Positions 1-21,121 of a DNA stretch of 25,897 nucleotides are shown here, piece after piece. A program made the position numbers and the translations under genes. The notes under the pieces are model-generated. The model was not told where the DNA came from, searched no databases, and saw only the letters and a program-made list of their open reading frames with translations. Origin of the DNA: a virus (lineage: Duplodnaviria > Heunggongvirae > Uroviricota > Caudoviricetes); IMG/VR virus record IMGVR_UViG_2698536403_000009; one strand, given 5' to 3'. Every line of letters begins with the position of its first letter. The stretch's first letter is position 1.

Positions 1-510
1 GTGGCTACGCAGACTGAAGTTGCCAGGCATTTAAGTCTGACCGATCGCCAGCTTCGCAGATTGCAGAAATTGCCGGGTGCCCCGATATCGAATAAGCGAG
101 GGCAACTGGATCTGGATGCCTGGCGCGATTTTTACATATCGTATCTGAGGAGAAGTAAAAACGATGTGCCTGATGGCGATAGCGAAGACGACTATGAGGA
201 GAAATTGCTTATCGCCAGATGGGAACTGACAGCAGAACAGGCTGTTACACAGCAGTTAAAAAATGAGGTGTCAAAAGGAAAACTTATTGACACCGGGTTC
301 TGTATTTTTGCCCTCAGTAAGCTGGCAATGGCGTTATCCAGTACGCTTGATTCCATCCCTTTATCCATGCAGCGACAGTTTCCTGATTTAACACCGCGCC
401 ATCTTGACCATCTGAAAACCCTTATTGCTAAGGGGGCAAATCAGTGTGCGCGGGCAGGGGATAAATTACCGGATTTACTCGATGAATATATCAGAGCAAC
501 AACTGAATAA
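1..510 (+). CDS. nu1: Terminase small subunit (Nu1-like); begins with GTG at window position 1, true start may lie upstream
   Basis: C-terminal half resembles lambda gpNu1 (FCIFALSKLA...LSMQRQFPDL...LLDEYI); N-terminal region looks like the DNA-binding part but is diverged; position immediately upstream of and overlapping the terminase large subunit. Confidence 0.8.
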   Translation: MATQTEVARHLSLTDRQLRRLQKLPGAPISNKRGQLDLDAWRDFYISYLRRSKNDVPDGDSEDDYEEKLLIARWELTAEQAVTQQLKNEVSKGKLIDTGFCIFALSKLAMALSSTLDSIPLSMQRQFPDLTPRHLDHLKTLIAKGANQCARAGDKLPDLLDEYIRATTE

Positions 511-2410
511 TATGGTGGCCGCCGTTTCGGTTGCGCTGCAGCCTCTGGTCAGGGTTGTACCGATGACGGCAGTTGAATGGGCTGACCAGTATTATTATCT
601 GCCTAAAGAATCCTCATACGGTGACGGCGAATGGAAAACGCTGCCGTTCCAGATCGCCATCATGAACAGTATGGGGAATGATCAGATCCGCACTGTTAAT
701 CTGATTAAATCTGCCCGTGTTGGCTATACAAAGATGTTGCTGGGAGTCGCCGGGTATTTTATTGAGCATAAATCCCGAAACAGTCTGCTTTTTCAGCCCA
801 CGGATTCTGCCGCTGAAGATTTTATGAAGTCTCACGTGGAGGCGACGATTCGGGACGTGCCATGCCTGAAAGATCTTTCCCCGTGGCTGGGTCGTAAACA
901 TCGTGACAATACTCTCACGCTGAAACGCTTTTCATCGGGGGTGGGCTTCTGGTGCCTGGGTGGTGCGGCAGCAAAAAACTACCGTGAAAAATCCGTGGAC
1001 GTGGTCTGCTATGACGAACTTTCCTCGTTCGAGCCGGATGTCGAAAAAGAGGGCTCGCCAACCCTGCTGGGGGATAAGCGTATTGAGGGCTCGGTATGGC
1101 CAAAATCCATTCGCGGCTCGACGCCTAAAATAAAAGGCTCCTGCCAGATCGAAAAAGCGGCCAACGAGTCGGCGCATTTCATGCGTTTTTATGTGCCCTG
1201 CCCGCACTGTGGGGAGGCGCAGTATCTGAAATTTGGCGATGAGTCCACGCCTTTTGGCCTTAAATGGGAGAAGGACAGCCCCGAAAGCGTTTTCTACCTC
1301 TGTGAACATCATGGCTGCGTGATCCATCAGTCTGAGCTTGACCAGAGCAACGGGCGGTGGATCTGCGAAAACACGGGGATGTGGACCCGCGACGGTCTGA
1401 CGTTTTTCAGCGCCGCGGATAATGAAATTCCGCCGCCGCGCTCCATCACATTCCATATCTGGACGGCGTACAGTCCGTTCACCACCTGGGTACAGATTGT
1501 CTATGACTGGCTGGATGCACTGAAAGATCCCAACGGCCTGAAAACCTTTGTGAACACCACGCTGGGCGAGACCTGGGAAGAGGCCGTGGGCGAAAAACTC
1601 GATCACCAGGTGCTGATGGATAAGGTTGTGCGTTACACGGCTGCGGTGCCTTCCCGGGTGGTTTATCTGACGGCGGGCATTGACTCGCAGCGAAACCGTT
1701 TTGAGATGTATGTCTGGGGATGGGCTCCGGGAGAGGAAGCCTTTCTGGTGGATAAAATCATCATTATGGGGCGTCCCGATGAGGAAGAGACGCTGTTACG
1801 TGTGGATGTGGCGATCAACAAAAAATACCGCCATGCAGACGGAACCGAAATGACCATTTCCCGTGTCTGCTGGGACACCGGGGGGATCGATGGCGAAATT
1901 GTCTATCAGAGGTCAAAAAAACACGGTGTTTTCCGGGTGCTGCCGGTAAAAGGTGCATCTGTTTATGGCAAGCCGGTGATCACCATGCCAAAAACCCGCA
2001 ATCAGCGGGGCGTGTATCTGTGCGAAGTGGGGACGGACACCGCAAAAGAAATTCTCTATGCCCGTATGAAAGCCGATCCCACGCCTGCGGATGAAGCCAC
2101 GTCGTATGCCATCCGTTTTCCTGATGATCCGGAGATTTTTTCGCAGACAGAGGCGCAGCAACTGGTGGCGGAAGAGCTTGTGGAGAAGTGGGAAAAAGGA
2201 AAGATGCGTCTGCTGTGGGATAACAAAAAGCGGCGTAACGAAGCGCTGGACTGCCTGGTGTATGCCTACGCGGCATTACGTGTGTCCGTGCAACGCTGGC
2301 AGCTTGATCTGGCTGTACTGGCAAAATCCCGGGAAGAAGAGACGACCCGGCCAACCCTGAAAGAACTGGCAGCGAAGCTGTCCGGAGGAGTGAATGGTTA
2401 CAGTCGCTGA
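482..2410 (+). CDS. A: Terminase large subunit
   Basis: Start chosen at ATG 482 (MNISEQQLNN...) by alignment to lambda gpA N-terminus (MNIS...TAVEWAD..YYLPKES); strong similarity along the whole length; overlaps Nu1 stop. The track ORF start at 425 is an upstream in-frame extension. Confidence 0.95.
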   Translation: MNISEQQLNNMVAAVSVALQPLVRVVPMTAVEWADQYYYLPKESSYGDGEWKTLPFQIAIMNSMGNDQIRTVNLIKSARVGYTKMLLGVAGYFIEHKSRNSLLFQPTDSAAEDFMKSHVEATIRDVPCLKDLSPWLGRKHRDNTLTLKRFSSGVGFWCLGGAAAKNYREKSVDVVCYDELSSFEPDVEKEGSPTLLGDKRIEGSVWPKSIRGSTPKIKGSCQIEKAANESAHFMRFYVPCPHCGEAQYLKFGDESTPFGLKWEKDSPESVFYLCEHHGCVIHQSELDQSNGRWICENTGMWTRDGLTFFSAADNEIPPPRSITFHIWTAYSPFTTWVQIVYDWLDALKDPNGLKTFVNTTLGETWEEAVGEKLDHQVLMDKVVRYTAAVPSRVVYLTAGIDSQRNRFEMYVWGWAPGEEAFLVDKIIIMGRPDEEETLLRVDVAINKKYRHADGTEMTISRVCWDTGGIDGEIVYQRSKKHGVFRVLPVKGASVYGKPVITMPKTRNQRGVYLCEVGTDTAKEILYARMKADPTPADEATSYAIRFPDDPEIFSQTEAQQLVAEELVEKWEKGKMRLLWDNKKRRNEALDCLVYAYAALRVSVQRWQLDLAVLAKSREEETTRPTLKELAAKLSGGVNGYSR

Positions 2411-2600
2411 ACTGCAGGTGCTGCGTCAGGCGCGCCTTGATTTATTAACCGGTAAACGGGTGGTGTCTGTCCAGAAAGATGGTCGCAGAATTGAATATAC
2501 GGCAGCTTCTCTGGATGAGCTTAACCGGGCGATCAATGATGCGGAGTCGGTACTGGGGACAACCCGCCGTCGCCGTCGTCCGCTGGGAGTGAGGTTATGA
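2394..2600 (+). CDS. W: Head-tail joining / head completion protein W
   Basis: 68 aa, LLTGKRVVSVQKDGRRIEYTAASL matches lambda gpW; GGAGG RBS; overlaps A stop and B start. Confidence 0.9.
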   Translation: MVTVAELQVLRQARLDLLTGKRVVSVQKDGRRIEYTAASLDELNRAINDAESVLGTTRRRRRPLGVRL

Positions 2601-4189
2601 AACGAACGCCTGTCCTGATTGATGTGAACGGCGTTCCGCTTCGGGAGAGCCTCAGCTACAACGGTGGCGGTGCAGGATTTGGCGGGCAAATGGCAGAGTG
2701 GTTGCCACCCTCGCAGAGTGCCGATGCGGCCCTGCTGCCCGCGTTGCGTCTGGGGAATGCCCGTGCAGATGATCTGGTGCGCAATAACGGAATAGCGGCC
2801 AATGCGGTGGCCCTGCATAAGGATCACATTGTCGGGCATATGTTTCTGATTAGCTACCGTCCGAACTGGCGCTGGCTGGGGATGCGGGAGACCGCGGCAA
2901 AAAGTTTTGTCGATGAGGTGGAGGCGGCCTGGTCAGAATACGCAGAAGGGATGTTTGGTGAGATCGACGTGGAAGGGAAACGCACGTTTACGGAATTTAT
3001 CCGTGAAGGTGTGGGCGTTCATGCGTTTAACGGCGAAATCTTTGTGCAGCCGGTCTGGGATACGGAGAGTACGCAACTGTTTCGTACGCGTTTTAAAGCC
3101 GTGAGTCCGAAACGGGTGGACACGCCAGGACACGGTATCGGGAACCGTTTTCTGCGGGCCGGTGTGGAGGTCGATCGATATGGCCGTGCCGTTGCGTACC
3201 ATATCTGTGAGGATGATTTTCCTCGCTCCGGGAGTGGACGATGGGAACGGATCCCGCGTGAACTACCCACCGGGCGTCCGGCCATGCTGCATATTTTCGA
3301 GCCGGTGGAGGACGGGCAGACCCGTGGAGCCAATCAGTTTTACAGCGTTATGGAACGGCTGAAGATGCTGGATTCCCTGCAGGCAACACAGCTTCAGTCG
3401 GCCATAGTGAAGGCGATGTATGCAGCGACGATTGAAAGTGACCTTGATACCGAAAAGGCCTTTGAATATATCGCCGGTGCGCCGCAGGGGCAGAAGGATA
3501 ATCCGCTTATTAATATTCTGGAGAAGTTCTCCACCTGGTATGACACGAATAGCGTGACGCTGGGCGGTGTCAAAATTCCGCACCTTTTCCCCGGTGATGA
3601 TCTGAAACTTCAGACCGCGCAGGATTCAGACAATGGATTTTCGGCGCTTGAACAGGCGCTGCTGCGGTATATCGCCGCCGGTCTTGGCGTTTCCTACGAA
3701 CAGTTGTCCCGTGATTACTCGAAGGTCAGTTATTCAAGTGCCCGCGCATCCGCCAATGAGTCGTGGCGCTATTTTATGGGGCGGCGAAAATTTATTGCGT
3801 CCCGGCTGGCCACGCAGATGTTTTCCTGCTGGCTGGAAGAGGCACTTCTTCGGGGGATTATTCGTCCGCCACGGGCACGTTTTGATTTTTATCAGGCGCG
3901 ATCAGCCTGGTCACGGGCTGAGTGGATTGGAGCCGGAAGAATGGCCATTGACGGGCTCAAGGAGGTTCAGGAATCAGTGATGCGCATTGAGGCCGGACTG
4001 AGCACGTATGAGAAAGAGCTGGCGCTGATGGGCGAGGATTATCAGGACATTTTCCGCCAGCAGGTCAGGGAATCTGCAGAGCGGGAAAAAGCCGGACTCT
4101 CACGTCCGGTGTGGATAGCGCAGGCGTATCAGCAGCAGATAGCGGAGAGTCGCAGGCCGGAAGAGGAGACAACACCACGTGAGACGTAA
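2597..4189 (+). CDS. B: Portal protein
   Basis: 530 aa, similar to lambda gpB along its length; ATGA overlap with W. Confidence 0.95.
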   Translation: MKRTPVLIDVNGVPLRESLSYNGGGAGFGGQMAEWLPPSQSADAALLPALRLGNARADDLVRNNGIAANAVALHKDHIVGHMFLISYRPNWRWLGMRETAAKSFVDEVEAAWSEYAEGMFGEIDVEGKRTFTEFIREGVGVHAFNGEIFVQPVWDTESTQLFRTRFKAVSPKRVDTPGHGIGNRFLRAGVEVDRYGRAVAYHICEDDFPRSGSGRWERIPRELPTGRPAMLHIFEPVEDGQTRGANQFYSVMERLKMLDSLQATQLQSAIVKAMYAATIESDLDTEKAFEYIAGAPQGQKDNPLINILEKFSTWYDTNSVTLGGVKIPHLFPGDDLKLQTAQDSDNGFSALEQALLRYIAAGLGVSYEQLSRDYSKVSYSSARASANESWRYFMGRRKFIASRLATQMFSCWLEEALLRGIIRPPRARFDFYQARSAWSRAEWIGAGRMAIDGLKEVQESVMRIEAGLSTYEKELALMGEDYQDIFRQQVRESAEREKAGLSRPVWIAQAYQQQIAESRRPEEETTPRET

Positions 4190-5684
4190 TCTTTCACACA
4201 TTATTGCCGCAGCATTCAATGAACCGCTGCTTCTGGAGCCCGCCTATGCGCGGGTTTTCTTTTGCGCGCTCGGGCGCGAGATGGGGGCAGCAAGTCTTTC
4301 GGTACCACAACAGCAGGTACAGTTTGATGCTCCCGGAATGCTGGCTGAAACGGACGAGTACATGGCCGGAGGTAAACGACCAGCCCGTGTTTACAGGGTG
4401 GTGAACGGTATTGCTGTACTGCCGGTGACCGGCACGCTGGTGCACCGGCTGGGGGGTATGCGGCCATTTTCCGGAATGACAGGCTATGACGGTATTGTCG
4501 CCTGTCTTCAGCAGGCAATGGCGGATAGCCAGGTGCGGGGCGTACTGCTGGACATTGACAGTCCGGGCGGGCAGGCCGCCGGCGCGTTTGACTGCGCTGA
4601 CATGATTTACCGCCTCCGTCAGCAGAAGCCGGTCTGGGCACTGTGCAATGACACGGCCTGTTCTGCAGCCATGCTGCTGGCGTCGGCCTGCTCCCGACGG
4701 CTGGTTACCCAGACATCCCGTATCGGCTCCATTGGCGTGATGATGAGCCATGTCAGCTATGCCGGTCATCTGGCGCAGGCCGGTGTGGATATCACGCTGA
4801 TTTACTCAGGGACGCACAAGGTGGATGGCAATCAGTTTGAAGCCTTACCGGCAGAGGTTCGCCAGGACATGCAGCAGCGCATTGATGCGGCGCGCCGGAT
4901 GTTTGCCGAAAAAGTGGCCATGTTTACCGGTCTGTCTGTTGATGCCGTCACGGGAACAGAGGCCGCCGTTTTTGAAGGTCAGTCCGGCATTGATGCCGGG
5001 CTGGCGGATGAATTAGTCAATGCGTCGGATGCCATCAGTGTGATGGCCACGGCGCTGAACAGTAATGTCAGAGGAGGCACTATGCCGCAATTAACTGCAA
5101 CGGAAGCCGCCGCGCAGGAGAACCAGCGAGTGATGGGGATCCTGACATGCCAGGAAGCGAAAGGACGTGAACAGCTTGCCACGATGCTGGCAGGACAACA
5201 GGGCATGAGCGTTGAACAGGCCCGGGCGATTCTGGCCGCGGCGGCACCGCAGCAGCCGGTGGCATCCGCGCAGAGTGAAGCCGATCGCATTATGGCGTGT
5301 GAAGAAGCGAACGGTCGTGAACAACTGGCGGCAACGCTGGCGGCGATGCCGGAGATGACGGTGGAAAAAGCCCGCCCGATCCTGGCGGCTGCACCACTGG
5401 CGGATGCCGGGCCCTCACTTCGTGATCAGATCATGGCCCTGGATGAGGCAAAAGGGGCAGAAGCGCAGGCTGAAAAACTGGCGGCCTGCCCGGGAATGAC
5501 CGTGGAGAACGCCCGGGCTGTGCTGGCTGCGGGATCAGGTAAGGCCGAACCGGTCTCTGCATCCACAACCGCCTTGTTTGAACATTTCATGGCGAATCAT
5601 TCACCGGCAGCGGTGCGGGGTGGCGTGTCACAGACGTCAGCAGACGGTGATGCGGACGTGAAAATGCTCATGGCCATGCCATGA
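4179..5684 (+). CDS. C: Prohead protease / minor capsid protein C (S49 ClpP-like peptidase domain plus C-terminal scaffold-like repeats)
   Basis: GTG start after GAGGAG RBS; N-terminal two thirds resemble lambda gpC (LEPAYARVFFCAL, GIAVLPV.GTLV, SIGVMMSH, IYSGTHKVDGN); 501 aa versus about 439 aa in lambda because of extra C-terminal repeats. Confidence 0.9.
   Translation: MRRNLSHIIAAAFNEPLLLEPAYARVFFCALGREMGAASLSVPQQQVQFDAPGMLAETDEYMAGGKRPARVYRVVNGIAVLPVTGTLVHRLGGMRPFSGMTGYDGIVACLQQAMADSQVRGVLLDIDSPGGQAAGAFDCADMIYRLRQQKPVWALCNDTACSAAMLLASACSRRLVTQTSRIGSIGVMMSHVSYAGHLAQAGVDITLIYSGTHKVDGNQFEALPAEVRQDMQQRIDAARRMFAEKVAMFTGLSVDAVTGTEAAVFEGQSGIDAGLADELVNASDAISVMATALNSNVRGGTMPQLTATEAAAQENQRVMGILTCQEAKGREQLATMLAGQQGMSVEQARAILAAAAPQQPVASAQSEADRIMACEEANGREQLAATLAAMPEMTVEKARPILAAAPLADAGPSLRDQIMALDEAKGAEAQAEKLAACPGMTVENARAVLAAGSGKAEPVSASTTALFEHFMANHSPAAVRGGVSQTSADGDADVKMLMAMP
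5082..5684 (+). CDS. nu3: Nu3-like scaffolding protein, in-frame internal start within C (copy 1)
   Basis: AGGAGG 5 nt upstream of ATG 5082, in frame with C; lambda Nu3 is produced the same way; contains three tandem ~40-aa repeats (I..GREQLA...GMTVE.AR.ILAA). Confidence 0.55.
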   Translation: MPQLTATEAAAQENQRVMGILTCQEAKGREQLATMLAGQQGMSVEQARAILAAAAPQQPVASAQSEADRIMACEEANGREQLAATLAAMPEMTVEKARPILAAAPLADAGPSLRDQIMALDEAKGAEAQAEKLAACPGMTVENARAVLAAGSGKAEPVSASTTALFEHFMANHSPAAVRGGVSQTSADGDADVKMLMAMP

Positions 5685-5720
5685 AGTCAGTGCTGACCAT
5701 CAATATGAGGTTTTAACAAA

Positions 5721-6068
5721 ATGGTGACGAAAACCATCACTGAACAGCGTGCGGAAGTACGTATTTTTGCCGGTAATGATCCGGCTCATACCGCCACAGG
5801 CAGCAGCGGGATTTCTTCTGCAACACCGGCTCTGACGCCCCTGATGCCGGATGAAGCCACCGGGAAACTGGTGGTCTGGGATGGACAGAAAGCCGGTAGT
5901 GCGGTTGGCATACTGGTACTGCCGCTTGAAGGCACAGAGACGGTGCTGACCTATTACAAGTCGGGGACCTTTGCGACGGAGGCAATCCGCTGGCCTGACA
6001 GTGTGGATGAACACAAAAAGGCAAATGCCTTTGCCGGTACAGCCCTGAGTCACGCGGCTCTGCCGTAA
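5721..6068 (+). CDS. D: Head decoration protein D (copy 1)
   Basis: 115 aa; NDPAHTATG...TPLM...KLVVWDG...GILV...YYKSGTF matches lambda gpD. Confidence 0.9.
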   Translation: MVTKTITEQRAEVRIFAGNDPAHTATGSSGISSATPALTPLMPDEATGKLVVWDGQKAGSAVGILVLPLEGTETVLTYYKSGTFATEAIRWPDSVDEHKKANAFAGTALSHAALP

Positions 6069-6125
6069 CACGTTATCAGGCCACCATGGCGGCCTGACTG
6101 ATTTCTGAATGAAAGGAACTGATTT

Positions 6126-6413
6126 ATGGGATTGTTTACGACCCGCCAGTTACTCGGTTATACCGAACAAAAAGTGAAATTCCGTGCGCTGTTTCTGGAG
6201 CTGTTTTTCCGCCGTACGGTGAATTTCCACACCGAAGAGGTGATGCTGGACAAAATTACCGGAAAAACGCCGGTGGCGGCCTATGTCTCCCCGATCGTTG
6301 AAGGAAAAGTGCTTCGCCATCGCGGTGGTGAAACCCGCGTGTTACGTCCATACTGCTGGACATTGACAGTCCGGGCGGGCAGGCCGCCGGCGCGTTTGAC
6401 TGCGCTGACATGA
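6126..6413 (+). pseudogene. Truncated major capsid gene fragment (E'), first ~75 codons fused out of frame to C sequence
   Basis: First 75 residues identical to the intact E at 7934; homology to E stops at 6349, then the frame runs into C-derived sequence and terminates at 6413. Confidence 0.8.
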
Positions 6414-7492
6414 TTTACCGCCTCCGTCAGCAGAAGCCGGTCTGGGCACTGTGCAATGACACGGCCTGTTCTGCAGCCATGCTGCTGGCGTCGGCCTGCT
6501 CCCGACGGCTGGTTACCCAGACATCCCGTATCGGCTCCATTGGCGTGATGATGAGCCATGTCAGCTATGCCGGTCATCTGGCGCAGGCCGGTGTGGATAT
6601 CACGCTGATTTATGCCGGGGCGCACAAGGTGGATGGCAATCAGTTTGAAGCGTTGCCGGCAGAGGTTCGCCAGGATATGCAGCAGCGGATTGATGCGGCG
6701 CACCGGATGTTTGCCGAAAAAGTGGCGATGTATACCGGGTTGTCTGTGGATGCGGTCACGGGAACAGAGGCCGCCGTTTTTGAAGGTCAGTCCGGCATTG
6801 AGGCCGGGCTGGCGGATGAATTAATCAATGCGTCGGATGCCATCAGTGTGATGGCCACGGCGCTGAACAGTAATGTCAGAGGAGGCACTATGCCGCAATT
6901 AACTGCAACGGAAGCCGCCGTGCAGGAGAACCAGCGAGTGATGGGGATCCTGACATGCCAGGAAGCGAAAGGACGTGAACAGCTTGCCACGATGCTGGCA
7001 GGACAACAGGGCATGAGCGTTGAACAGGCCCGGGCGATTCTGGCCGCGGCGGCACCGCAGCAGCCGGTGGCATCCGCGCAGAGTGAAGCCGATCGCATTA
7101 TGGCGTGTGAAGAAGCGAACGGTCGTGAACAACTGGCGGCAACGCTGGCGGCGATGCCGGAGATGACGGTGGAAAAAGCCCGCCCGATCCTGGCGGCTGC
7201 ACCACTGGCGGATGCCGGGCCCTCACTTCGTGATCAGATCATGGCCCTGGATGAGGCAAAAGGGGCAGAAGCGCAGGCTGAAAAACTGGCGGCCTGCCCG
7301 GGAATGACCGTGGAGAACGCCCGGGCTGTGCTGGCTGCGGGATCAGGTAAGGCCGAACCGGTCTCTGCATCCACAACCGCCTTGTTTGAACATTTCATGG
7401 CGAATCATTCACCGGCAGCGGTGCGGGGTGGCGTGTCACAGACGTCAGCAGACGGTGATGCGGACGTGAAAATGCTCATGGCCATGCCATGA
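6350..7492 (+). pseudogene. 5'-truncated copy of C (lacks N-terminal ~120 codons and its start); contains an intact Nu3-like ORF
   Basis: Homologous to C from codon ~122 onward; no upstream start or RBS in frame (the track ORF 6410 starts at an internal Met). Confidence 0.75.
6890..7492 (+). CDS. nu3: Nu3-like scaffolding protein (copy 2)
   Basis: Same AGGAGG-ATG start as copy 1 at +1808 offset; intact to the stop at 7492. Confidence 0.5.
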   Translation: MPQLTATEAAVQENQRVMGILTCQEAKGREQLATMLAGQQGMSVEQARAILAAAAPQQPVASAQSEADRIMACEEANGREQLAATLAAMPEMTVEKARPILAAAPLADAGPSLRDQIMALDEAKGAEAQAEKLAACPGMTVENARAVLAAGSGKAEPVSASTTALFEHFMANHSPAAVRGGVSQTSADGDADVKMLMAMP

Positions 7493-7528
7493 AGTCAGTG
7501 CTGACCATCAATATGAGGTTTTAACAAA

Positions 7529-7876
7529 ATGGTGACGAAAACCATCACTGAACAGCGTGCGGAAGTACGTATTTTTGCCGGTAATGATCCGGCTCATACC
7601 GCCACAGGCAGCAGCGGGATTTCTTCTGCAACACCGGCTCTGACGCCCCTGATGCCGGATGAAGCCACCGGGAAACTGGTGGTCTGGGATGGACAGAAAG
7701 CCGGTAGTGCGGTTGGCATACTGGTACTGCCGCTTGAAGGCACAGAGACGGTGCTGACCTATTACAAGTCGGGGACCTTTGCGACGGAGGCAATCCGCTG
7801 GCCTGACAGTGTGGATGAACACAAAAAGGCAAATGCCTTTGCCGGTACAGCCCTGAGTCACGCGGCTCTGCCGTAA
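7529..7876 (+). CDS. D: Head decoration protein D (copy 2)
   Basis: Protein identical to copy 1. Confidence 0.85.
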   Translation: MVTKTITEQRAEVRIFAGNDPAHTATGSSGISSATPALTPLMPDEATGKLVVWDGQKAGSAVGILVLPLEGTETVLTYYKSGTFATEAIRWPDSVDEHKKANAFAGTALSHAALP

Positions 7877-7933
7877 CACGTTATCAGGCCACCATGGCGG
7901 CCTGACTGATTTCTGAATGAAAGGAACTGATTT

Positions 7934-8962
7934 ATGGGATTGTTTACGACCCGCCAGTTACTCGGTTATACCGAACAAAAAGTGAAATTCCGTGCGCTGT
8001 TTCTGGAGCTGTTTTTCCGCCGTACGGTGAATTTCCACACCGAAGAGGTGATGCTGGACAAAATTACCGGAAAAACGCCGGTGGCGGCCTATGTCTCCCC
8101 GATCGTTGAAGGAAAAGTGCTTCGCCATCGCGGTGGTGAAACCCGCGTGTTACGTCCGGGCTACGTCAAGCCCAAACACGAATTTAATTACCAGCAGGCG
8201 GTTGAGCGCCTTCCTGGTGAAGATCCGGCTCAGCTGAACGACCCGGCCTACCGTCGTCTGCGTATCATTACCGATAACCTCAAACAGGAAGAGCACGCCA
8301 TTGTCCAGGTGGAAGAAATGCAGGCGGTGAATGCCGTGCTGTATGGCAAATACACCATGGAAGGGGATCAGTTTGACACGGTTGAGGTGGATTTCGGGCG
8401 CTCTGAAGGAAATAACATTGAGCAGGCTGACGGTAAAAAATGGTCTGAGCAGGACCGTGATACGTTTGATCCGACGCATGATATTGACCTCTACTGCGAT
8501 CAGGCCAGCGGCCTTGTGAATATCGCCATTATGGACGGTACGGTCTGGCGTCTGCTGAATGGCTTTAAGCTGTTCCGCGAAAAACTGGATACCCGTCGCG
8601 GCTCAAATTCACAACTCGAAACGGCAGTGAAAGATCTGGGCGCAGTGGTGTCCTTCAAGGGGTATTACGGCGATCTGGCCATTGTGGTGGCGAAAACGTC
8701 TTATGTGGCAGAGGACGGTACCGAAAAACGTTATCTGCCGGAGGGCATGCTGGTGCTGGGGAATACGGCGGCAGAGGGGATTCGTTGCTATGGAGCCATT
8801 AAGGATGCACAGGCGTTGTCTGAAGGAGTGGTGGCTTCTTCCCGTTACCCGAAACACTGGCTGACCGTGGGCGATCCGTCCTGTGAATTCACCATGACGC
8901 AGTCCGCTCCGCTGATGGTGCTGCCGGATCCTGATGAGTTTGTGGTGGTACAGGTGAAATAA
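7934..8962 (+). CDS. E: Major capsid protein E (intact copy)
   Basis: 342 aa; similar to lambda gpE throughout (YVSPIV.G.V...GG, PGYVKPKHE, DPAYRR.RII, RRGSNS.LETAVKDLG, SAPLM.L.DPDEFV); AAGGA RBS. Confidence 0.95.
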   Translation: MGLFTTRQLLGYTEQKVKFRALFLELFFRRTVNFHTEEVMLDKITGKTPVAAYVSPIVEGKVLRHRGGETRVLRPGYVKPKHEFNYQQAVERLPGEDPAQLNDPAYRRLRIITDNLKQEEHAIVQVEEMQAVNAVLYGKYTMEGDQFDTVEVDFGRSEGNNIEQADGKKWSEQDRDTFDPTHDIDLYCDQASGLVNIAIMDGTVWRLLNGFKLFREKLDTRRGSNSQLETAVKDLGAVVSFKGYYGDLAIVVAKTSYVAEDGTEKRYLPEGMLVLGNTAAEGIRCYGAIKDAQALSEGVVASSRYPKHWLTVGDPSCEFTMTQSAPLMVLPDPDEFVVVQVK

Positions 8963-8970
8963 TCCGTGAG

Positions 8971-8999
8971 CGGGGGCGAAATGCCCCCGTGTCTTTTTT
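8971..8999 (+). terminator. Intrinsic terminator-like hairpin after E
   Basis: 7-bp GC stem cgggggc/gcccccg (8971-8977 / 8983-8989), loop gaaat, followed by tgtcttttttc. Confidence 0.55.
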
Positions 9000-9013
9000 C
9001 ACAGGAGGCTGAG

Positions 9014-9397
9014 ATGGCAACAAAAGAAGAAAATCTGAATCGTCTTCGTCAACTGGCTGGCCTGCTGGGGCGCGAGGCGGATATGTCGGGGAGTGCTGCG
9101 GATATTGCTCAACGTGTGTCTGAGTGGGAAGAGGAGCTTGCTGTTTCCCCGGAGGGCATTATGCACTCTGATGAGAGCGGGGCTGATCAAAATCACACAG
9201 ACGATGGTGAGCAGTTGAACAACACGGATGCTCCGGATGATGTTAAAGCCGTCCGGGTACGGAAGTGCCTGCAAGTAATGGGGTATTGCCCGGAGACAGG
9301 TCGTCCCGTTGAGCTGGCGTTACGGGGTATGCGTGTTCTGGTGCCATCATCACTGGCAACGGCCATGATACAGCACGGAACGGCTGAATATGCGTGA
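9014..9397 (+). CDS. FI: DNA packaging protein FI
   Basis: Start ATG 9014 after AGGAGG; acidic middle region and position between E and FII as in lambda; weaker sequence match than neighbours. Confidence 0.8.
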   Translation: MATKEENLNRLRQLAGLLGREADMSGSAADIAQRVSEWEEELAVSPEGIMHSDESGADQNHTDDGEQLNNTDAPDDVKAVRVRKCLQVMGYCPETGRPVELALRGMRVLVPSSLATAMIQHGTAEYA

Positions 9398-9743
9398 TTT
9401 TCAGAATGCCTTTGATGCTGCCCTTGCCGGGGTGGACAGTACGATCGTTGAAGTGATGGGGATCCGTGCGCAGTTCACCTCCGGAGCACAACGTGGCGGC
9501 GAAGTTCAGGGGGTTTTTGACGATCCGGAGTCGCTGGGTTTTGCCGGTGGCGGGGTCCGTATTGAAGGAAGCAGCCCGTCATTATTTGTGCGGACGGATA
9601 CGGTGCGTGCCGTGCGGCGTGGTGACACGCTGACCATTAACGGCGAGATGTTCTGGGTGGATCGTGTTTCTCCGGATGACAGGGGAAGCTGTTATCTCTG
9701 GCTCAACCGTGGGCAACCCCCCGCAGTTAACCGGCGACGATAA
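9390..9743 (+). CDS. FII: Head-tail joining protein FII
   Basis: 117 aa; GVFDDPE...GSSPSLFVRTD.VR..RRGDTLTI....FWVDRVSPDD.GSC.LWL.RG.PPAVNRRR matches lambda gpFII. Confidence 0.9.
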   Translation: MRDFQNAFDAALAGVDSTIVEVMGIRAQFTSGAQRGGEVQGVFDDPESLGFAGGGVRIEGSSPSLFVRTDTVRAVRRGDTLTINGEMFWVDRVSPDDRGSCYLWLNRGQPPAVNRRR

Positions 9744-9758
9744 ACGCAGGGTGAAATT

Positions 9759-10334
9759 ATGGCGATAAAAGGGCTTGCTCAGGCGATTGATAATCTGAGC
9801 CGGGTTCGTAAAAACGCCATTCCGGCGGCTTCAGCAATGACGATTAACCGCGTGGCCACAACGGCGATTAATCAGTCTTCATCACAGGTTGCCCGGGAAA
9901 CCAGGGTGAGACGGAAACTGGTAAAGGAACGGTCCAGACTGAAACGGGCCACGGTCAGAAATCCGAATGCAAAAATTATCGTTAACCGCGGTGATCTTCC
10001 TGTGATTAAGCTGGGGATCAGAATGCTGGGGCGTCGTCCGGACAGCATACTCAAAGCCGGTCAGCATCGTTATCAGCGGGCATTTATCCAGCGATTAAAT
10101 AATGGGCGCTGGCATGTTATGCAACGTCTTCCCCAGGCCAGATATGAGAAGGGCAATGACGACAAGGGCAGGAAAAAGCGTAATCGCCTTCCTATTCAGG
10201 TGGTGAAAATCCCGATGGCGGCCCCACTGAAACAGGCGTTTGATGAAAACGTTGACCGTATCCGGCGTGAACGTCTGCCCGGAGAACTGGCATACGCGCT
10301 GAAACAACAGCTGAGGATTGCGATAAAACGATGA
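9759..10334 (+). CDS. Z: Minor tail protein Z
   Basis: 191 aa; MAIKGL.QA..NLSR...INRVA...VARET.VRRKLVKER.RLKRATV...GRWHVMQR...IPMA.PL...RIRRERLP.EL.YAL matches lambda gpZ. Confidence 0.9.
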   Translation: MAIKGLAQAIDNLSRVRKNAIPAASAMTINRVATTAINQSSSQVARETRVRRKLVKERSRLKRATVRNPNAKIIVNRGDLPVIKLGIRMLGRRPDSILKAGQHRYQRAFIQRLNNGRWHVMQRLPQARYEKGNDDKGRKKRNRLPIQVVKIPMAAPLKQAFDENVDRIRRERLPGELAYALKQQLRIAIKR

Positions 10335-10726
10335 AACATACTGATATCCGTGCGGCAGTGCTGGATGCACTCGAGCAGCATGAACACGGGGCGACGCTGT
10401 TTGATGGTCGCCCCGTTGTTTTTGACGAAGAGGATTTTCCTGCGATCGCGGTTTATCTGACGGATGCAGAGTATACCGGTGAAGAGCTGGATGCAGATAC
10501 CTGGCGGGCCACACTGCATATTGAGGTGTTTTTACCGGCACAGGTACCGGATTCGGAGCTGGATTCGTGGATGGAAAGCCGGATTTATCCGGCGATGACC
10601 GCGATCCCGGCACTGGCAGGACTGATTACCACGATGGTTACGCAGGGCTATGAGTATCGTCGTGATGACGATATGGCGTTATGGAGTTCTGCAGATCTGA
10701 CTTATTCCATTACATACGAGATGTGA
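10331..10726 (+). CDS. U: Minor tail protein U (tail terminator)
   Basis: 131 aa, nearly colinear with lambda gpU ([44 protein letters not shown]). Confidence 0.9.
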
Positions 10727-10733
10727 GGACGAT

Positions 10734-11486
10734 ATGGCAACACCAAATCCCCTTGAGCCGGTAAAAGGTGCCGGTACCACTCTGTGGGTTTATAACGGCA
10801 AGGGTGACGCCTATGCAAACCCGTTGTCAGACGATGACTGGCAGCGACTGGCTAAGGTGAAGGATCTGACGCCGGGCGAGATGACGGCAGAATCCTACGA
10901 TGATAACTATCTGGATGATGAAGACGCGGACTGGACCGCGACCGGGCAGGGTCAGAAATCTGCGGGTGACACCAGTTTTACGCTGGCCTGGAAGCCGGGA
11001 GAGGAAGGTCAGAAAGGGCTTATAGGCTGGTTTGAAAGCGGGGATGTGCGGGCCTATAAAATCCGTTTTCCGAACGGCACGGTGGATGTGTTTCGTGGCT
11101 GGGTCAGCAGTATCGGTAAGGCCGTGACGGCGAAAGAAGTGATCACCCGCACGGTGAAAGTGACCAACGTGGGCAAACCTTCTGTAGCGGAAGAACGCAG
11201 CAAAATTACGCCGGTCACTGCGATTAAGGTGACGCCGACATCCGGTACGGTGGCAAAAGGGAAAACAACCACCCTGACGGTTTCTTTTGAGCCGGAAAGT
11301 GCAACCGACAAGACGTTCAGAGCGGTTTCCGCCGATCCGTCGAAAGCCACCATTAGTGTGAAAGATATGACAATTACGGTAAACGGCGTGGCGACAGGTA
11401 AGGTGCAGATCCCTGTGGTGAGCGGAAATGGTCAGTTCGCCGCAGTGGCTGAAGTCACCGTTACTGAAGCGGGCGCTGCAGGGTAA
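10734..11486 (+). CDS. V: Major tail protein V
   Basis: 250 aa; [71 protein letters not shown] matches lambda gpV. Confidence 0.95.
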
Positions 11487-11499
11487 ACGGAGGTCATAC

Positions 11500-11931
11500 A
11501 TGTTTCTGAAAACAGAACAATTTGAATATAACGGTGTGTCCGTCACGCTTTCCGAATTGTCTGCGCTGCAGCGTATTGAGCATCTTGCCCTCCTGAAACG
11601 GCGTGCAGAACAGGCAGAATCCAGCGGCAACCTGCAGGTAAGCGTGGAAGATCTCGTCAGAACCGGCGCGTTTCTGGTGGCGATGTCCCTGTGGCATAAC
11701 CATCCGCAGAAAACGGGGTCACCGTCAATGAATGAGGCTGTGATGCAGATTGAGCAGGAAGTCCTGACCACCTGGCCTGCGGATGCCATTGCCCGGGCGG
11801 AAAATGTGGTGTTGCGTCTGTCCGGGATGAGCGGGCCTGTTCATGTGGATACGGATATTACCGAAGTGGCGAAAAATAACGCGCTGACTGATGATGATTT
11901 TTCTGCGGGAAAGTCTTCGACGGCGAGCTGA
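11500..11931 (+). CDS. G: Tail assembly chaperone G
   Basis: Start ATG 11500 after ACGGAGG; MFLKTE.FE.NGV.VTLSELSALQRIEHLAL.KR.AEQAES matches lambda gpG; the track ORF 11428 extends upstream into V. Confidence 0.9.
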   Translation: MFLKTEQFEYNGVSVTLSELSALQRIEHLALLKRRAEQAESSGNLQVSVEDLVRTGAFLVAMSLWHNHPQKTGSPSMNEAVMQIEQEVLTTWPADAIARAENVVLRLSGMSGPVHVDTDITEVAKNNALTDDDFSAGKSSTAS

Positions 11932-12371
11932 ATTTTGCCCTCAGACTGGCGCGTGAGATGGGGAGGCCTGACTGGCGCGCCATGCTTGCCGGGATGACAT
12001 CCACCGAATATGCCGACTGGCGACATTTTTACCGCATGCATTATTTTCACGATACCCAGCTGGATATGCATTTTTCCGGGCTGACGTACGCTGTACTCAG
12101 CCTGTTTTTTTGCGATCCGGATATGCATCCCTCTGATTTCAGTCTGCTTGCCCCCCGGCGTGAGGAAGCGCAGACGGAGATGCCGGATGAGGAAAAAATG
12201 CTGATGCAGAAAGCGGCAGGACTTGCCGGAGGCGTCCGGTTTGGTGGGGACGGAGGGCGTGAGATTTTATCGTCTGCGGATGTGGCGGATGTCAGCGAGG
12301 ATGATGTCGCATTAATGATGGCTTCAGCGGGGATTTCCGGAGGTGTGAGATATGTCCCAGCCGGTTGGTGA
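11500..12371 (+). CDS. T: Tail assembly protein G-T fusion produced by programmed -1 ribosomal frameshift (T-frame part 11910-12371)
   Basis: Slippery heptamer G_GGA_AAG at 11907-11913 in the G frame, the same site as lambda G-T; the -1 frame downstream encodes KVFDGEL.FAL.LAREMGRPDWRAMLAGM.STEYADW similar to lambda gpT. Confidence 0.8.
11907..11913 (+). promoter_or_regulatory. G-T -1 frameshift slippery site (GGGAAAG)
   Basis: X_XXY_YYZ heptamer in G frame, followed in the -1 frame by a T homolog. Confidence 0.8.
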
Positions 12372-14931
12372 TCTTGTTATTGACCTGAGTCTGGATGCGG
12401 TCCGTTTCGATGAGCAGATGAGCCGGGTAAGGCGTCATTTTTCCGGACTGGAGACTGACGCCAGAAAAACCGCCAGTGCTGTTGAACAGGGCCTGAGCCG
12501 CCAGGCGTTGGCTGCACAAAAAGCCGGGATTTCCGTCGGGCAGTATAAAGCGGCCATGCGAACCCTGCCCGCACAGTTTACGGATATCGCCACGCAGCTT
12601 GCCGGTGGTCAGAATCCCTGGCTGATCCTGCTGCAACAGGGCGGTCAGGTGAAGGACTCCTTCGGCGGGATGATCCCCATGTTCAGGGGACTTGCCGGTG
12701 CGATCACCCTGCCGATGGTCGGGGTCACCTCGCTGGCGGTGGCGACAGGTGCGCTGGCGTACGCCTGGTACCAGGGGGATTCCACGCTTTCAGCGTTTAA
12801 TAAAACCCTGGTTCTTTCCGGTAATCAGTCCGGACTGACTGCCGATCGCATGCTGACGCTCTCCAGAGCCGGACAGGCCGCAGGGCTGACGTTTAACCAG
12901 GCGAGTGAGTCACTGGCAGCCCTGGTGAATGTCGGTGTGCGTGGTGGTGAACAGTTTGATGCCATCAACCAGAGTGTCGCGCGTTTTGCTTCTGCATCCG
13001 GTGTGGAGGTGGACAAGGTTGCAGAGGCTTTCGGAAAACTGACCACCGACCCGACGTCGGGGCTGATGGCGATGGCGCGCCAGTTCCGTAACGTGACGGC
13101 AGAGCAGATTGCGTATGTTGCGCAGCTGCAGCGTTCCGGTGATGAGGCCGGGGCCTTACAGGCGGCGAACGATGCTGCCACGAAAGGCTTTGATGAGCAG
13201 ACCCGTCGCCTGAAAGAAAACATGGGGACACTGGAGACCTGGGCGGATAAAACAGGGAAGGCATTCAAATCGATGTGGGATGCCATTCTGGATATCGGTC
13301 GTCCTGAGTCCTCAGCGGATATGCTCGCCAGTGCACAGAAGGCATTTGATGAGGCGGATAAAAAATGGCAGTGGTACCAGAGCCGGAGCCAGCGCCGGGG
13401 AAAAACCGCCTCTTTTCGTGCGAACCTTCAGGGTGCATGGGATGACCGGGAAAATGCCCGTCTGGGGCTGGCAGCGGCCACGCTGCAGTCGGATATGGAA
13501 AAAGCCGGTGAACTGGCCGCCAGGGACCGGGCCGAACGGGACGCATCACAGCTGAAGTATACCGGAGAGGCGCAGAAGGCGTATGAGCGTCTGCTGACGC
13601 CGCTGGAGAAATATACCGCCCGTCAGGAAGAACTGAATAAGGCCCTGAAAGACGGGAAAATCCTGCAGGTGGATTACAACACGCTGATGGCGGCGGCGAA
13701 AAAGGATTATGAATCGACGCTGAAAAAGCCGAAGTCGTCAGGAGTCAAAGTGTCAGCCGGTGAGCGCCAGGAAGACCGGGCACATGCTGCCCTGCTGGCG
13801 CTTGAAACTGAGCTCCGGACGCTGGAAAAACACAGCGGTGCGAATGAGAAAATCAGCCAGCAGCGTCGCGATTTATGGAAAGCGGAAAATCAGTATGCGG
13901 TCCTGAAAGAGGCAGCCACGAAACGGCAGTTATCTGAGCAGGAAAAATCCCTGCTGACCCATGAGAAAGAGACGCTGGAGTACAAACGCCAGCTGGCTGA
14001 GCTGGGAGACAAAGTTGAACACCAGAAACGGCTGAATGAGCTGGCACAGCAGGCTGCGCGGTTTGAACAGCAGCAGAGTGCGAAGCAGGCGGCAATCAGC
14101 GCAAAAGCCCGCGGACTCACCGACCGTCAGGCGCAGCGGGAGTCGGAAGAGCAGCGCCTTCGTGACGTGTACGGTGATAATCCGGATGCGCTGGCGAAGG
14201 CCACATCTGCACTGAAGAACACCTGGTCTGCGGAGGAGCAGCTTCGTGGAAGCTGGATGGCCGGTCTGAAGTCCGGCTGGGGCGAGTGGGCAGAAAGTGC
14301 GACGGACAGTTTTTCGCAGGTTAAAAACGCGGCCACGCAGACCTTTGACGGTATTGCACAGAATATGGCGGGGATGCTGACCGGCAGCGAACAGAACTGG
14401 CGTGGTTTCACCCGTTCCGTGCTCTCCATGCTGACAGAGATTTTTCTGAAGCAGGCCATGGTGGGGATTGTCGGGAGTATTGGCAGCGCCATGGGTGGTG
14501 CTTTCGGTGGTGGGGCGTCTGCCTCCACGGGGACGGCCATTCAGGCTGCGGCGGCGAACTTCCATTTTGCGACCGGAGGATTTACGGGAACCGGTGGCAA
14601 ATATGAGCCAGCGGGGATTGTTCACCGTGGTGAATTTGTCTTCACGAAGGAGGCAACCAGCCGGATTGGCGTAGGAAATCTTTACCGGCTGATGCGCGGC
14701 TATGCCACCGGTGGTTATGTCGGTGGCACCGGAAGTCCGGCGCAGATGCGGCGTTCAGAGGGTATCAGATTTGAGCAGAACAACAACGTGGTGATTCAGA
14801 ACGACGGTATCAACGGACAGGCGGGGCCGCAGCTGATGAAGGCGGTGTATGACATGGCCCGCAAGGGGGCACAGGATGAACTCCGGCTGCAGTTGCGTGA
14901 TGGCGGTATGTTATCAGGGAGCGGTGGATGA
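12352..14931 (+). CDS. H: Tail tape measure protein H
   Basis: 859 aa, colinear with lambda gpH (N-term PVGDLV.DLSLDA.RFDEQM.RVRRHFSG; C-term KYEPAGIVHRGEFVFTKEATSRIGVGNLYRLMRGYATGGYVG). Confidence 0.95.
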   Translation: MSQPVGDLVIDLSLDAVRFDEQMSRVRRHFSGLETDARKTASAVEQGLSRQALAAQKAGISVGQYKAAMRTLPAQFTDIATQLAGGQNPWLILLQQGGQVKDSFGGMIPMFRGLAGAITLPMVGVTSLAVATGALAYAWYQGDSTLSAFNKTLVLSGNQSGLTADRMLTLSRAGQAAGLTFNQASESLAALVNVGVRGGEQFDAINQSVARFASASGVEVDKVAEAFGKLTTDPTSGLMAMARQFRNVTAEQIAYVAQLQRSGDEAGALQAANDAATKGFDEQTRRLKENMGTLETWADKTGKAFKSMWDAILDIGRPESSADMLASAQKAFDEADKKWQWYQSRSQRRGKTASFRANLQGAWDDRENARLGLAAATLQSDMEKAGELAARDRAERDASQLKYTGEAQKAYERLLTPLEKYTARQEELNKALKDGKILQVDYNTLMAAAKKDYESTLKKPKSSGVKVSAGERQEDRAHAALLALETELRTLEKHSGANEKISQQRRDLWKAENQYAVLKEAATKRQLSEQEKSLLTHEKETLEYKRQLAELGDKVEHQKRLNELAQQAARFEQQQSAKQAAISAKARGLTDRQAQRESEEQRLRDVYGDNPDALAKATSALKNTWSAEEQLRGSWMAGLKSGWGEWAESATDSFSQVKNAATQTFDGIAQNMAGMLTGSEQNWRGFTRSVLSMLTEIFLKQAMVGIVGSIGSAMGGAFGGGASASTGTAIQAAAANFHFATGGFTGTGGKYEPAGIVHRGEFVFTKEATSRIGVGNLYRLMRGYATGGYVGGTGSPAQMRRSEGIRFEQNNNVVIQNDGINGQAGPQLMKAVYDMARKGAQDELRLQLRDGGMLSGSGG

Positions 14932-15257
14932 AAACCTTTCGCTGGAAAGTGAAGCCGGATATGGAGGTGAACTCGCAGCCGTCGGTGCGTGAAGTGCGTT
15001 TTGGTGACGGGTACTCACAGCGTATGGCGGCAGGGCTGAATGCTGACCTGAAAACATACAGGGTGACGCTTTTCGTGACCCGGGAGGAGGCCCGGCATCT
15101 GGAAGCGTTCCTGGCAGAGCACGGTGGCTGGAAGGCATTTTTGTGGAAGCCACCCTATGCATACCGGCAGATAAAGGTGACCTGTGCCGGGTGGTCTGCG
15201 CGGGTCGGGATGTTGCGCGTTGAGTTCAGCGCGGAGTTTAAGCAGGTGGTGAACTGA
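14928..15257 (+). CDS. M: Minor tail protein M
   Basis: 109 aa, position and size as lambda gpM; ATGA overlap with H. Confidence 0.9.
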   Translation: MKTFRWKVKPDMEVNSQPSVREVRFGDGYSQRMAAGLNADLKTYRVTLFVTREEARHLEAFLAEHGGWKAFLWKPPYAYRQIKVTCAGWSARVGMLRVEFSAEFKQVVN

Positions 15258-15955: not shown

Positions 15956-15965
15956 ATCCCGGTTT

Positions 15966-17287: not shown

Positions 17288-17291
17288 AACA

Positions 17292-17326
17292 TAAAAAAAT
17301 CCCGCAGTGATCGCGGAGCTGCGGGG
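17292..17326 (-). terminator. Intrinsic terminator oriented for the minus strand
   Basis: Stem cccgcag/ctgcggg (17301-17307 / 17319-17325), 11-nt loop; on the minus strand the hairpin is followed by atttttttat (plus 17291-17300). Confidence 0.5.
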
Positions 17327-17390
17327 ACAGACAAATGAAGATCAATGTTAAGGAGTTGTTTTTGTTACTCGGGCAAAAAAACACTAACGC
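17292..17390 (-). ncRNA. Candidate small RNA (~100 nt) in the I-J intergenic insert
   Basis: Sigma70-like promoter on the minus strand (-35 TTCACA = plus 17419-17424; 16-bp spacer; -10 TATAAT = plus 17397-17402) followed ~100 nt downstream by the intrinsic terminator at 17292-17326; no plausible ORF on that strand. Confidence 0.3.
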
Positions 17391-17396
17391 AGCGAA

Positions 17397-17424
17397 ATTA
17401 TAAGCGCCACAGTCAGTGTGTGAA
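17397..17424 (-). promoter_or_regulatory. Putative sigma70 promoter (TTCACA-16-TATAAT) on the minus strand
   Basis: Perfect -10 hexamer, 5/6 match at -35, 16-bp spacer; lies in the AT-rich insert between I and J. Confidence 0.35.
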
Positions 17425-21103: not shown

Positions 21104-21121
21104 ATTTTATAACCCAGAACG

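What the first reader, a model, noticed from the sequence alone, without database searches (positions are those of the whole stretch)
4542..8157. 1808-bp tandem duplication inside the head-gene cluster creates an E'-C' fusion and extra copies of Nu3 and D
The segment covering the 3' 1.1 kb of C, gene D and the first 224 bp of E occurs twice in direct tandem (4542-6349 and 6350-8157), so the order is C, D, E'(truncated)-C'(5'-truncated), D, E. One intact copy of C, D and E remains, so the phage could still be functional, but the scaffold (Nu3) and decoration (D) genes are doubled and a chimeric E-C junction ORF exists (6126-6413). Lambda capsid assembly depends on fixed stoichiometry (established), so a stable duplication here would be unusual; alternatively it is a collapsed-repeat assembly artefact.
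Basis: seen in the sequence. Interest (0 to 1): 0.6.

Follow-up and report, generated by a model that had tools for sequence, protein, structure and literature searches.

The report
False duplication at a scaffold gap
The apparent 1.8-kb tandem duplication of phage head genes comes from two overlapping contigs of a draft E. coli assembly being placed end to end across an unsequenced single-N gap, so it is an assembly artefact and not a feature of the phage.

Summary
The repeat is in the window as described: 4542-6349 and 6350-8157, 1808 bp, 19 mismatches. The window is contig CYBH01000014.1 of draft assembly GCA_001285345.1. It differs from the deposited record at only two positions in 25.9 kb, 6350 and 22256. 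Both read A in the window and N in the record. Position 6350 is the duplication junction. Both novel junctions are therefore scaffold joins that were never sequenced.

All 19 differences between the copies are sites where copy 2 carries the allele of a second, deleted prophage remnant ("R", next to the trp operon). Copy 2 switches back to the intact prophage's allele inside an 81-bp stretch the two prophages share. No comparator has that haplotype. The same prophage in another assembly (L009) is colinear and single copy. The junction is absent from 5,426 complete E. coli genomes, 50,697 phage records, IMG/VR and the GTDB representatives.

What is really there is one ordinary phage-21-type head/tail module, a false join, and a genuine old remnant prophage. 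This is not a real feature and is of low interest. The N-to-A substitution in the window hid the gaps.

The parts
1..6349 (+). Contig A of the scaffold: left arm of an intact lambdoid prophage P with phage-21-type head genes. Genes are Nu1 1-510, A 482-2410, W 2394-2600, portal B 2597-4189, protease/scaffold C 4179-5684 with nested Nu3 5082-5684, decoration protein D 5721-6068, and the first 75 codons of major capsid gene E 6126-6349.
   Evidence: Identical to the deposited contig CYBH01000014.1. Pfam labels Phage_Nu1, GpA_ATPase, gpW, Phage_portal_2, Peptidase_S49, HDPD and Phage_cap_E. 95% identical to phage 21 and 98% to phage 204576. The C haplotype is identical to L009 and L011.
4542..6349 (+). 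Copy 1 of the 1808-bp repeat, which is the 3' end of contig A. It carries the authentic allele of prophage P.
   Evidence: Zero mismatches to L009 and L011 over 4610-5810.
6350..6350 (.). Scaffold gap: N in the deposited record, A in the window. This is the supposed duplication junction. It is also a site where P (G) and the remnant R (A) differ.
   Evidence: one of only two differences between the window and the record. The N is present in each separately fetched stretch of the contig that covers this site (L003, L010).
6351..8157 (+). Copy 2 of the repeat, which is the 5' end of contig B. Positions 6351-6921 carry the remnant R allele at all 18 variable sites. Positions 6922-7002 are identical in P and R. 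From 7003 onward the allele is P again. This is a chimeric contig end that overlaps contig A.
   Evidence: The exact haplotype is found in none of 11 comparator loci.
8158..22255 (+). Remainder of contig B: the rest of E (full gene 7934-8962), FI, FII, Z, U, V, G, T, H, M, L, K, I, J (17630-21103), lom (21170-21769) and the first ~140 codons of side tail fibre stf (from ~21834). It ends in the middle of stf.
   Evidence: Pfam labels. Colinear with L009 and L001. The stf N-terminal part is 99.7% identical, up to its last base, to intact stf genes that continue beyond that point.
22256..22256 (.). Second scaffold gap: N in the deposited record, A in the window. It is again a P(G)/R(A) variable site.
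22257..23053 (+). Third partial copy of the head segment. It is the genuine sequence of remnant prophage R: the 3' part of C with Nu3 (22322-22924) and the first 31 codons of D (22961-23053).
   Evidence: 99.97-100% identical to the trp-adjacent remnant in L005, L006 and L007. 96% identical to copies 1 and 2 and 97% to phage 21.
23053..23054 (+). Real, old deletion junction D'/'stf of remnant R. It has 2-nt microhomology and is out of frame. The ORF 22961-23392 is a by-product of this junction.
   Evidence: The same 143-aa ORF and flanks occur in at least 4 other assemblies and one Logan contig.
23054..25897 (+). Right end of remnant R: stf 3' part (23353-23979), tfa (23979-24563), a minus-strand methyltransferase (24618-25286) and a tfa fragment (25343-25612). 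In the contig it leads on to yciE/F/G and the trp operon.

Best explanation
The tandem duplication is a false duplication made by the assembly. The strain carries at least two lambdoid prophages with about 96% identical phage-21-type C/Nu3/D genes. One is an intact prophage P. The other is a deleted remnant R next to the trp operon. In the short-read assembly this repeat broke the locus into contigs. Contig A ends at window 6349, inside E. Contig B begins at 6351, inside C, so the last 1807 bp of A and the first 1807 bp of B are the same stretch of P. The first 571 bp of contig B were built from R-derived reads, which leaves 18 mismatches in the overlap. Because of those mismatches the overlap was not merged. 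The scaffolder placed the two contigs end to end with a single N between them. A second single-N join at 22256 attaches the end of contig B, in the middle of stf, to contig C, which starts inside R's C gene. In the window both N's appear as A, so the joins look like continuous sequence. The real locus is a single-copy C-D-E head cluster. No E'-C' junction, extra Nu3 or D gene, or stf/C junction exists in the DNA. Shown: the N's, the overlap, the allele pattern, and the single-copy state of relatives. Inferred: which program step produced the unmerged overlap.
For: (1): across 25.9 kb the window differs from the deposited contig at only two positions, 6350 and 22256, both N in the record. These are exactly the two non-homologous breakpoints. 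The chance of that coincidence is about 3e-9. (2): all 19 differences between copy 1 and copy 2 are sites where copy 2 has R's allele (identical in L005, L006, L008). From 7003 on, copy 2 equals copy 1 (P) and R differs at about 30 sites. The switch lies in an 81-bp stretch identical in P and R. That haplotype is seen in none of 11 comparators. (3) Both N sites are themselves P(G)/R(A) differences, so contigs B and C each start one base after a P/R SNP, where an assembly graph branches. (4): the same prophage in GCA_025337365.1 (L009, 99.3-99.7% identical) is colinear with a single copy. Window 214-6349 maps to L009 2036-8171 and window 6351-12091 maps to L009 6365-12105, so the same 1807 bp of L009 are used twice. 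All 19 phage records covering the region are also single copy. (5) The junction is absent from 5,426 complete E. coli genomes, the GTDB representatives and IMG/VR. The junction ORF is on record only from this one contig. (6) There is no microhomology at either join. The stf N-terminal sequence matches intact stf genes up to the last base before the N. (7) Short contigs from other draft assemblies begin inside C and end inside E. One ends within 5 bp of the 6349-equivalent position. This shows the segment behaves as a repeat node in other short-read assemblies too. (8) A widely used Velvet, SSPACE and GapFiller pipeline is described by its own authors as greedy and able to make false joins at N gaps (PMC5320598). 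GapFiller extends contig ends base by base and closes a gap only if the overlap and size criteria are met (PMC3446322).
Against: I could not look at reads or coverage, so the single-copy state in this particular strain is inferred, not observed. I could not verify which assembler or scaffolder made GCA_001285345.1. That a single N marks a non-positive gap with no detectable overlap rests on my own knowledge of SSPACE and Velvet conventions. I found no passage stating it. A plain de Bruijn assembler would not normally output the same 1236 identical bases twice, so a later extension or repeat-resolution step has to be assumed. The A in the window equals R's allele at both N sites. That could mean the window came from a gap-filled version of the record and not from a blind N-to-A conversion. 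This would not create a sequenced junction.
Confidence: 0.94

Rival explanations
1. There is a real tandem duplication of C'-D-E' in prophage P, made by illegitimate recombination. The assembler simply failed to read through its junction. A later gene conversion from remnant R changed the 5' 570 bp of copy 2.
For: The order C, D, E', C', D, E with one intact copy of each gene is what a tandem duplication would give. The scaffolder did place the contigs in this order, so some read pairs linked them. Tandem duplications in lambda are known from classical genetics (my own knowledge).
Against: The junction is N, not sequence. A real novel junction produces unique k-mers that assemble easily. The conversion tract would have to begin exactly at the duplication junction and end in the same 81-bp shared stretch where an assembler would switch paths. 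A second unrelated non-homologous junction in the same contig is also an N. No other genome or assembly has the junction. L009 is single copy.
Confidence: 0.03
2. The strain has a third prophage H whose C gene naturally combines an R-like 5' patch with a P-like 3' part. Contig B is the true sequence of H, wrongly scaffolded after contig A. On this reading the join is still false, but copy 2 is real DNA from elsewhere in the genome.
For: A natural haplotype of this kind exists in other genomes. L015-L020 carry the R-like patch and a mostly P-like remainder, and they encode the same 360-aa C' product.
Against: Those natural haplotypes differ from copy 2 at 5195 (G, not A) and 5574 (C, not T). 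Copy 2 is identical to copy 1 over the whole 1236 bp from 6922 to 8157, and contig B is colinear with L009, a relative of P, to at least 12091. So H would have to be an exact second copy of P's right arm. Nothing else in the window calls for a third copy.
Confidence: 0.03

Closest known systems
False duplications at gaps and contig ends in draft assemblies (e.g. Ko et al. 2022, Genome Biol 23:205, PMC9516828; false joins noted for SSPACE and GapFiller in Page et al. 2016, PMC5320598)
   Same: Two copies of one locus flank an assembly gap. The copies differ by alleles of a paralogous sequence. The duplication inflates gene counts (here extra Nu3, D, and C' and E' fragments). It is single copy in better or independent assemblies.
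   Different: The published cases are mostly heterozygous haplotypes in vertebrate genomes. Here the second 'haplotype' is a paralogous prophage remnant in a haploid bacterium, and the gap is a single N that the window shows as A.
Phage 21 / lambda head-gene module (Nu1-A-W-B-C/Nu3-D(shp)-E-FI-FII)
   Same: Gene order, sizes and sequence match (95% DNA identity to phage 21, OL657228 and M81255, over the head region). The Nu3 scaffold frame is nested in the protease gene C, with its own RBS and ATG.
   Different: Nothing of note once the overlap is merged. The merged locus is colinear with phage 21, phage 204576 and L009.
Genuine tandem duplications in phage lambda (classical dup mutants; own knowledge)
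   Same: The apparent head-to-tail arrangement with a novel joint.
   Different: A genuine duplication has a sequenced novel joint and initially identical copies. Here the joint is an N, and the copies differ by a paralogue's alleles.

Membership tests
Assembly artefact: unmerged contig overlap / false duplication at a scaffold join | A gap character, not sequence, at the novel junction in the source record | tested here: met
   Window 6350 is N in CYBH01000014.1. The second odd junction, 22256, is also N. These are the only two differences in 25.9 kb.
Assembly artefact: unmerged contig overlap / false duplication at a scaffold join | The sequence left of the gap (suffix) and right of the gap (prefix) are the same locus | tested here: met
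   4543-6349 against 6351-8157: 1807 bp, 99.0% identical, ungapped. Both map to the same 1807 bp of L009.
Assembly artefact: unmerged contig overlap / false duplication at a scaffold join | Differences between the copies trace to a paralogous repeat in the same genome | tested here: met
   All 19 differences equal the allele of remnant R, which is present in the same contig at 22257-23053 and in L005, L006 and L008.
Assembly artefact: unmerged contig overlap / false duplication at a scaffold join | Single copy in independent assemblies of the same element, and junction absent elsewhere | tested here: met
   L009 is single copy. 19 phage records are single copy. No junction hit in complete E. 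coli genomes, GTDB representatives or IMG/VR. The junction ORF is on record only from this contig.
Assembly artefact: unmerged contig overlap / false duplication at a scaffold join | No reads span the junction, and read depth fits one copy | not testable with these tools
Genuine tandem duplication by illegitimate recombination | A contiguous, sequenced novel joint | tested here: not met
   The joint is N in the deposit.
Genuine tandem duplication by illegitimate recombination | Copies identical, or diverged evenly along their length | tested here: not met
   18 of 19 differences fall in a 309-bp patch, there are none in the remaining 1236 bp, and all match a paralogue.
Lambda / phage 21 head module | S49 protease C with nested scaffold Nu3, HDPD-type decoration protein, lambda E-type major capsid protein, in that order after the portal gene | tested here: met
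   Pfam PF01343, PF02924, PF03864 and PF05136 on the called genes. 95% DNA identity to the annotated phage 21. Nu3 has an RBS and ATG at 5082 and a 200-aa frame.

The most novel reading that the evidence does not exclude
The isolate really carries a 1.8-kb tandem duplication in the head operon of a phage-21-like prophage, with doubled scaffold and decoration genes. Its joint merely failed to assemble, and copy 2 was later converted by the neighbouring remnant.
Probability: 0.03. Interest if true: 0.3.

Novelty: not a real feature. Interest (0 to 1): 0.04.

Why it matters
Biologically it does not matter. The locus is an ordinary single-copy phage-21-type head cluster, and nothing here bears on capsid stoichiometry.

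The value is methodological. (1) The window shows A where the source record has N, so scaffold gaps are invisible to a reader of raw sequence, and each gap can pass for a recombination junction. Two such cases occur in this one window. (2) Draft E. coli assemblies with several lambdoid prophages produce false gene gains of this kind. Here they are an extra Nu3, an extra D, a C' fragment, an E' fragment, and a truncated stf fused to head genes. Gene catalogues have already taken these up as called proteins: the 95-aa and 360-aa ORFs are on record.

Tried and rejected
- **Real duplication present in relatives.** I searched the 201-bp junction in complete E. coli genomes and the 5.1-kb region in phages. 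I also searched a 30-mer of the junction in the GTDB representatives and in IMG/VR. There were no hits, and every relative was single copy.
- **The third copy as a known stf variant.** No record covers lom-stf-C'-D'-stf-tfa. Only the right half, the D'/stf deletion, is shared with other assemblies. The left join is an N.
- **Random or sequencing-error divergence between the copies.** Rejected, because every difference equals the R allele.
- **Copy 2 as the natural 'H' haplotype seen on short contigs L015-L020.** It is close but differs at 5195 and 5574, so I kept it only as a minor rival.
- **A published statement that a single N marks a non-positive gap in SSPACE or GapFiller output.** I did not find one. 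This point stays as my own knowledge.
- **Rfam scan of the window.** It returned only IS009 inside tfa, which has no bearing on the finding.
Full report
**Observation.** The window contains a direct tandem repeat of 1808 bp, at 4542-6349 and 6350-8157. It covers the last 1143 bp of the protease/scaffold gene C (4179-5684) with the nested Nu3 frame (5082-5684), the decoration gene D (5721-6068), and the first 224 bp of the major capsid gene E (6126-6349). An intact E follows at 7934-8962.

Several details differ from the finding.
- The two copies differ at 19 positions: 4542, plus 18 sites in 4805-5113. The remaining 1236 bp are identical.
- The 95-aa ORF 6126-6413 is not an in-frame E-C fusion. 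It reads 75 codons of E, then 20 out-of-frame codons, then stops.
- A third partial copy of the same segment lies at 22256-23053. It holds the 3' part of C with Nu3 and the first 31 codons of D. It sits inside the side-tail-fibre gene, is 96% identical to copies 1 and 2, and is 97% identical to phage 21.

**Source of the window.** A look-up of the junction ORF identified the window as NCBI draft assembly GCA_001285345.1, contig CYBH01000014.1 (134 kb). Window position 1 corresponds to contig position 253. I aligned the window to two stretches of that contig fetched independently (L003 and L004). Exactly two differences appeared in 25.9 kb. Window 6350 and window 22256 are A in the window and N in the deposited record. 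The N at 6350 is also in L010, a separate fetch of the same contig. Position 6350 is the junction of the tandem duplication. Position 22256 is the left edge of the third copy. The chance that the only two N's land on the only two non-homologous breakpoints is about 3e-9. Both novel junctions are therefore scaffold joins. The scaffold has three pieces: contig A runs to 6349, contig B covers 6351-22255, and contig C starts at 22257.

**Why the contigs overlap and why the copies differ.** The D'-stf ORF at the right edge of the third copy (22961-23392) occurs in at least four other E. coli assemblies and one Logan contig. There it belongs to a deleted prophage remnant, R, with the order A-W-B'-C-D'/'stf-tfa-methyltransferase, lying next to yciE/F/G and the trp operon. 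Window 22256-25897 is 99.97-100% identical to those remnants. Contig C is therefore genuine R sequence. The D'/stf junction at 23053 is a real old deletion, with 2-nt microhomology and out of frame.

At all 19 sites where copy 1 and copy 2 differ, copy 2 carries R's base. L005, L006 and L008 agree at every one of these sites. From 7003 onward copy 2 is identical to copy 1, while R differs from both at about 30 sites. The switch falls inside 5114-5194 (copy 2: 6922-7002), an 81-bp stretch identical in all three copies.

Copy 1's haplotype is identical to the same prophage in two other samples, L009 and L011. Copy 2's exact haplotype is seen in none of 11 comparators. A similar natural haplotype on short contigs L015-L020 differs from it at 5195 and 5574.

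The two N positions are themselves sites where P has G and R has A. Contigs B and C therefore each begin one base after a P/R SNP, which is where a k-mer graph branches.

**Relatives.** The same prophage in GCA_025337365.1 (L009, 99.3-99.7% identical) is colinear and has one copy. Window 214-6349 aligns to L009 2036-8171, and window 6351-12091 aligns to L009 6365-12105. The same 1807 bp of L009 thus serve both copies. All 19 phage records that cover the region span about 3.29 kb where the window has 5.10 kb. These include phage 21 and phage 204576.

The junction is absent from 5,426 complete E. coli genomes, from the GTDB species representatives and from IMG/VR. The junction ORF is on record only from this contig.

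The stf N-terminal sequence that ends at 22255 is 99.7% identical, to its last base, to intact stf genes that simply continue past that point, for example in strain E110019. Neither join shows microhomology.

In other short-read assemblies the same C-to-E segment comes out as separate 1.2-2.5 kb contigs. One of them ends within 5 bp of the position equivalent to 6349. The segment therefore acts as a repeat node in other short-read assemblies as well.

**Mechanism.** Three things are shown: two contigs with a 1807-bp, 99.0%-identical suffix/prefix overlap separated by one N; the paralogue-allele chimera at the start of contig B; and a second abutting join by one N.

The rest is inferred. The strain has an intact prophage P and a remnant R that share C/Nu3/D at about 96% identity. 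The graph broke at P/R differences, and contig ends were extended or resolved through the repeat. The start of contig B followed R-derived reads and then crossed into P through the 81-bp shared stretch. The 18 mismatches prevented merging of the overlap. The scaffolder then abutted the contigs with a placeholder N.

This matches how the authors of a common Velvet, SSPACE and GapFiller pipeline describe its risks: 'greedy algorithms... can lead to false joins', with gaps of N between joined contigs (PMC5320598). It also matches GapFiller's base-by-base extension from each gap edge with majority voting at allelic differences (PMC3446322). I could not confirm that this assembly was made with that pipeline. 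I also found no published statement of the single-N convention, so that point rests on my own knowledge. False duplications at gaps and contig ends that inflate gene counts are a documented class of error (PMC9516828).

**What is really there.** After the overlap is merged, the window holds three things:
- about 20.4 kb of an ordinary lambdoid prophage with a phage-21-type head module and lambda-type tail genes, Nu1 through the first ~140 codons of stf;
- a false join;
- the right end of the trp-adjacent remnant R.

**Rivals.** A real duplication with an unassembled joint plus a gene-conversion tract is possible in principle. It requires three coincidences. The conversion tract would have to start exactly at the joint. 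It would have to end in the one stretch where an assembler would switch paths. A second, unrelated N join would have to sit in the same contig. I give this 3%.

A third prophage carrying copy 2's haplotype would make copy 2 real DNA from another part of the genome, but the tandem arrangement would still be false. I also give this 3%.

**Verdict.** The headline interpretation is not supported. This is not a real feature, and I score interest at 0.04.

Noticed in passing
window 6350 and 22256: The window shows A where the deposited record (CYBH01000014.1) has N. Scaffold gaps are therefore invisible in the raw window and look like recombination junctions. In both cases A also happens to be the remnant prophage's allele, so a gap-filled version of the record cannot be excluded as the source.
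   Followed up: yes
window 22256-23053: A third partial copy of C/Nu3/D sits inside the side-tail-fibre gene and was not in the finding. It is genuine sequence of a deleted prophage remnant next to the trp operon. Its left edge is a scaffold N.
   Followed up: yes
window 23053 (ORF 22961-23392); L005-L008: A real deletion fuses codon 31 of D to the 3' part of stf, out of frame and with 2-nt microhomology, removing E through the stf N-terminus. It is shared by at least 4 independent E. coli assemblies and one Logan contig. It is therefore an old, vertically inherited cryptic prophage at the yciE-trp locus. Some carriers also have a B'-C deletion (73-aa and 483-aa ORFs in L005-L007).
   Followed up: partly
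window 17288-17629: A spacer of about 340 bp lies between tail genes I and J, which are adjacent in lambda. It contains a strong GC-rich hairpin with T and A runs on either side (17492-17532), which looks like a bidirectional terminator. Part of the spacer (17451-17626) has no counterpart in phage 204576. It may be the remnant of a moron.
   Followed up: no
window 24322-24520: There is an Rfam IS009 hit (223.8 bits, gathering score 117) on the + strand, inside the 3' part of the tail-fibre-assembly gene tfa.
   Followed up: no
window 24387-24612 and 25436-25662: An 88%-identical direct repeat of the tfa 3' end flanks a minus-strand class I SAM methyltransferase (24618-25286). The second copy is a tfa fragment (25343-25612). 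The same layout is annotated in many complete E. coli genomes.
   Followed up: no
L015-L020 (short contigs of other draft assemblies): A natural recombinant C haplotype exists in other strains, remnant-like in 4805-5195 and P-like afterwards. The C-to-E segment often comes out as an isolated 1.2-2.5 kb contig. This shows that these head genes are a general assembly-breaking repeat in E. coli with several prophages.
   Followed up: partly
phage collection hit MT713136.1 (H22): Aeromonas phage AP1 (254 kb) holds a 245-bp stretch 95.5% identical to this E. coli head region, in an unannotated part near the end of the record. This may be contamination or a chimera in that record.
   Followed up: no
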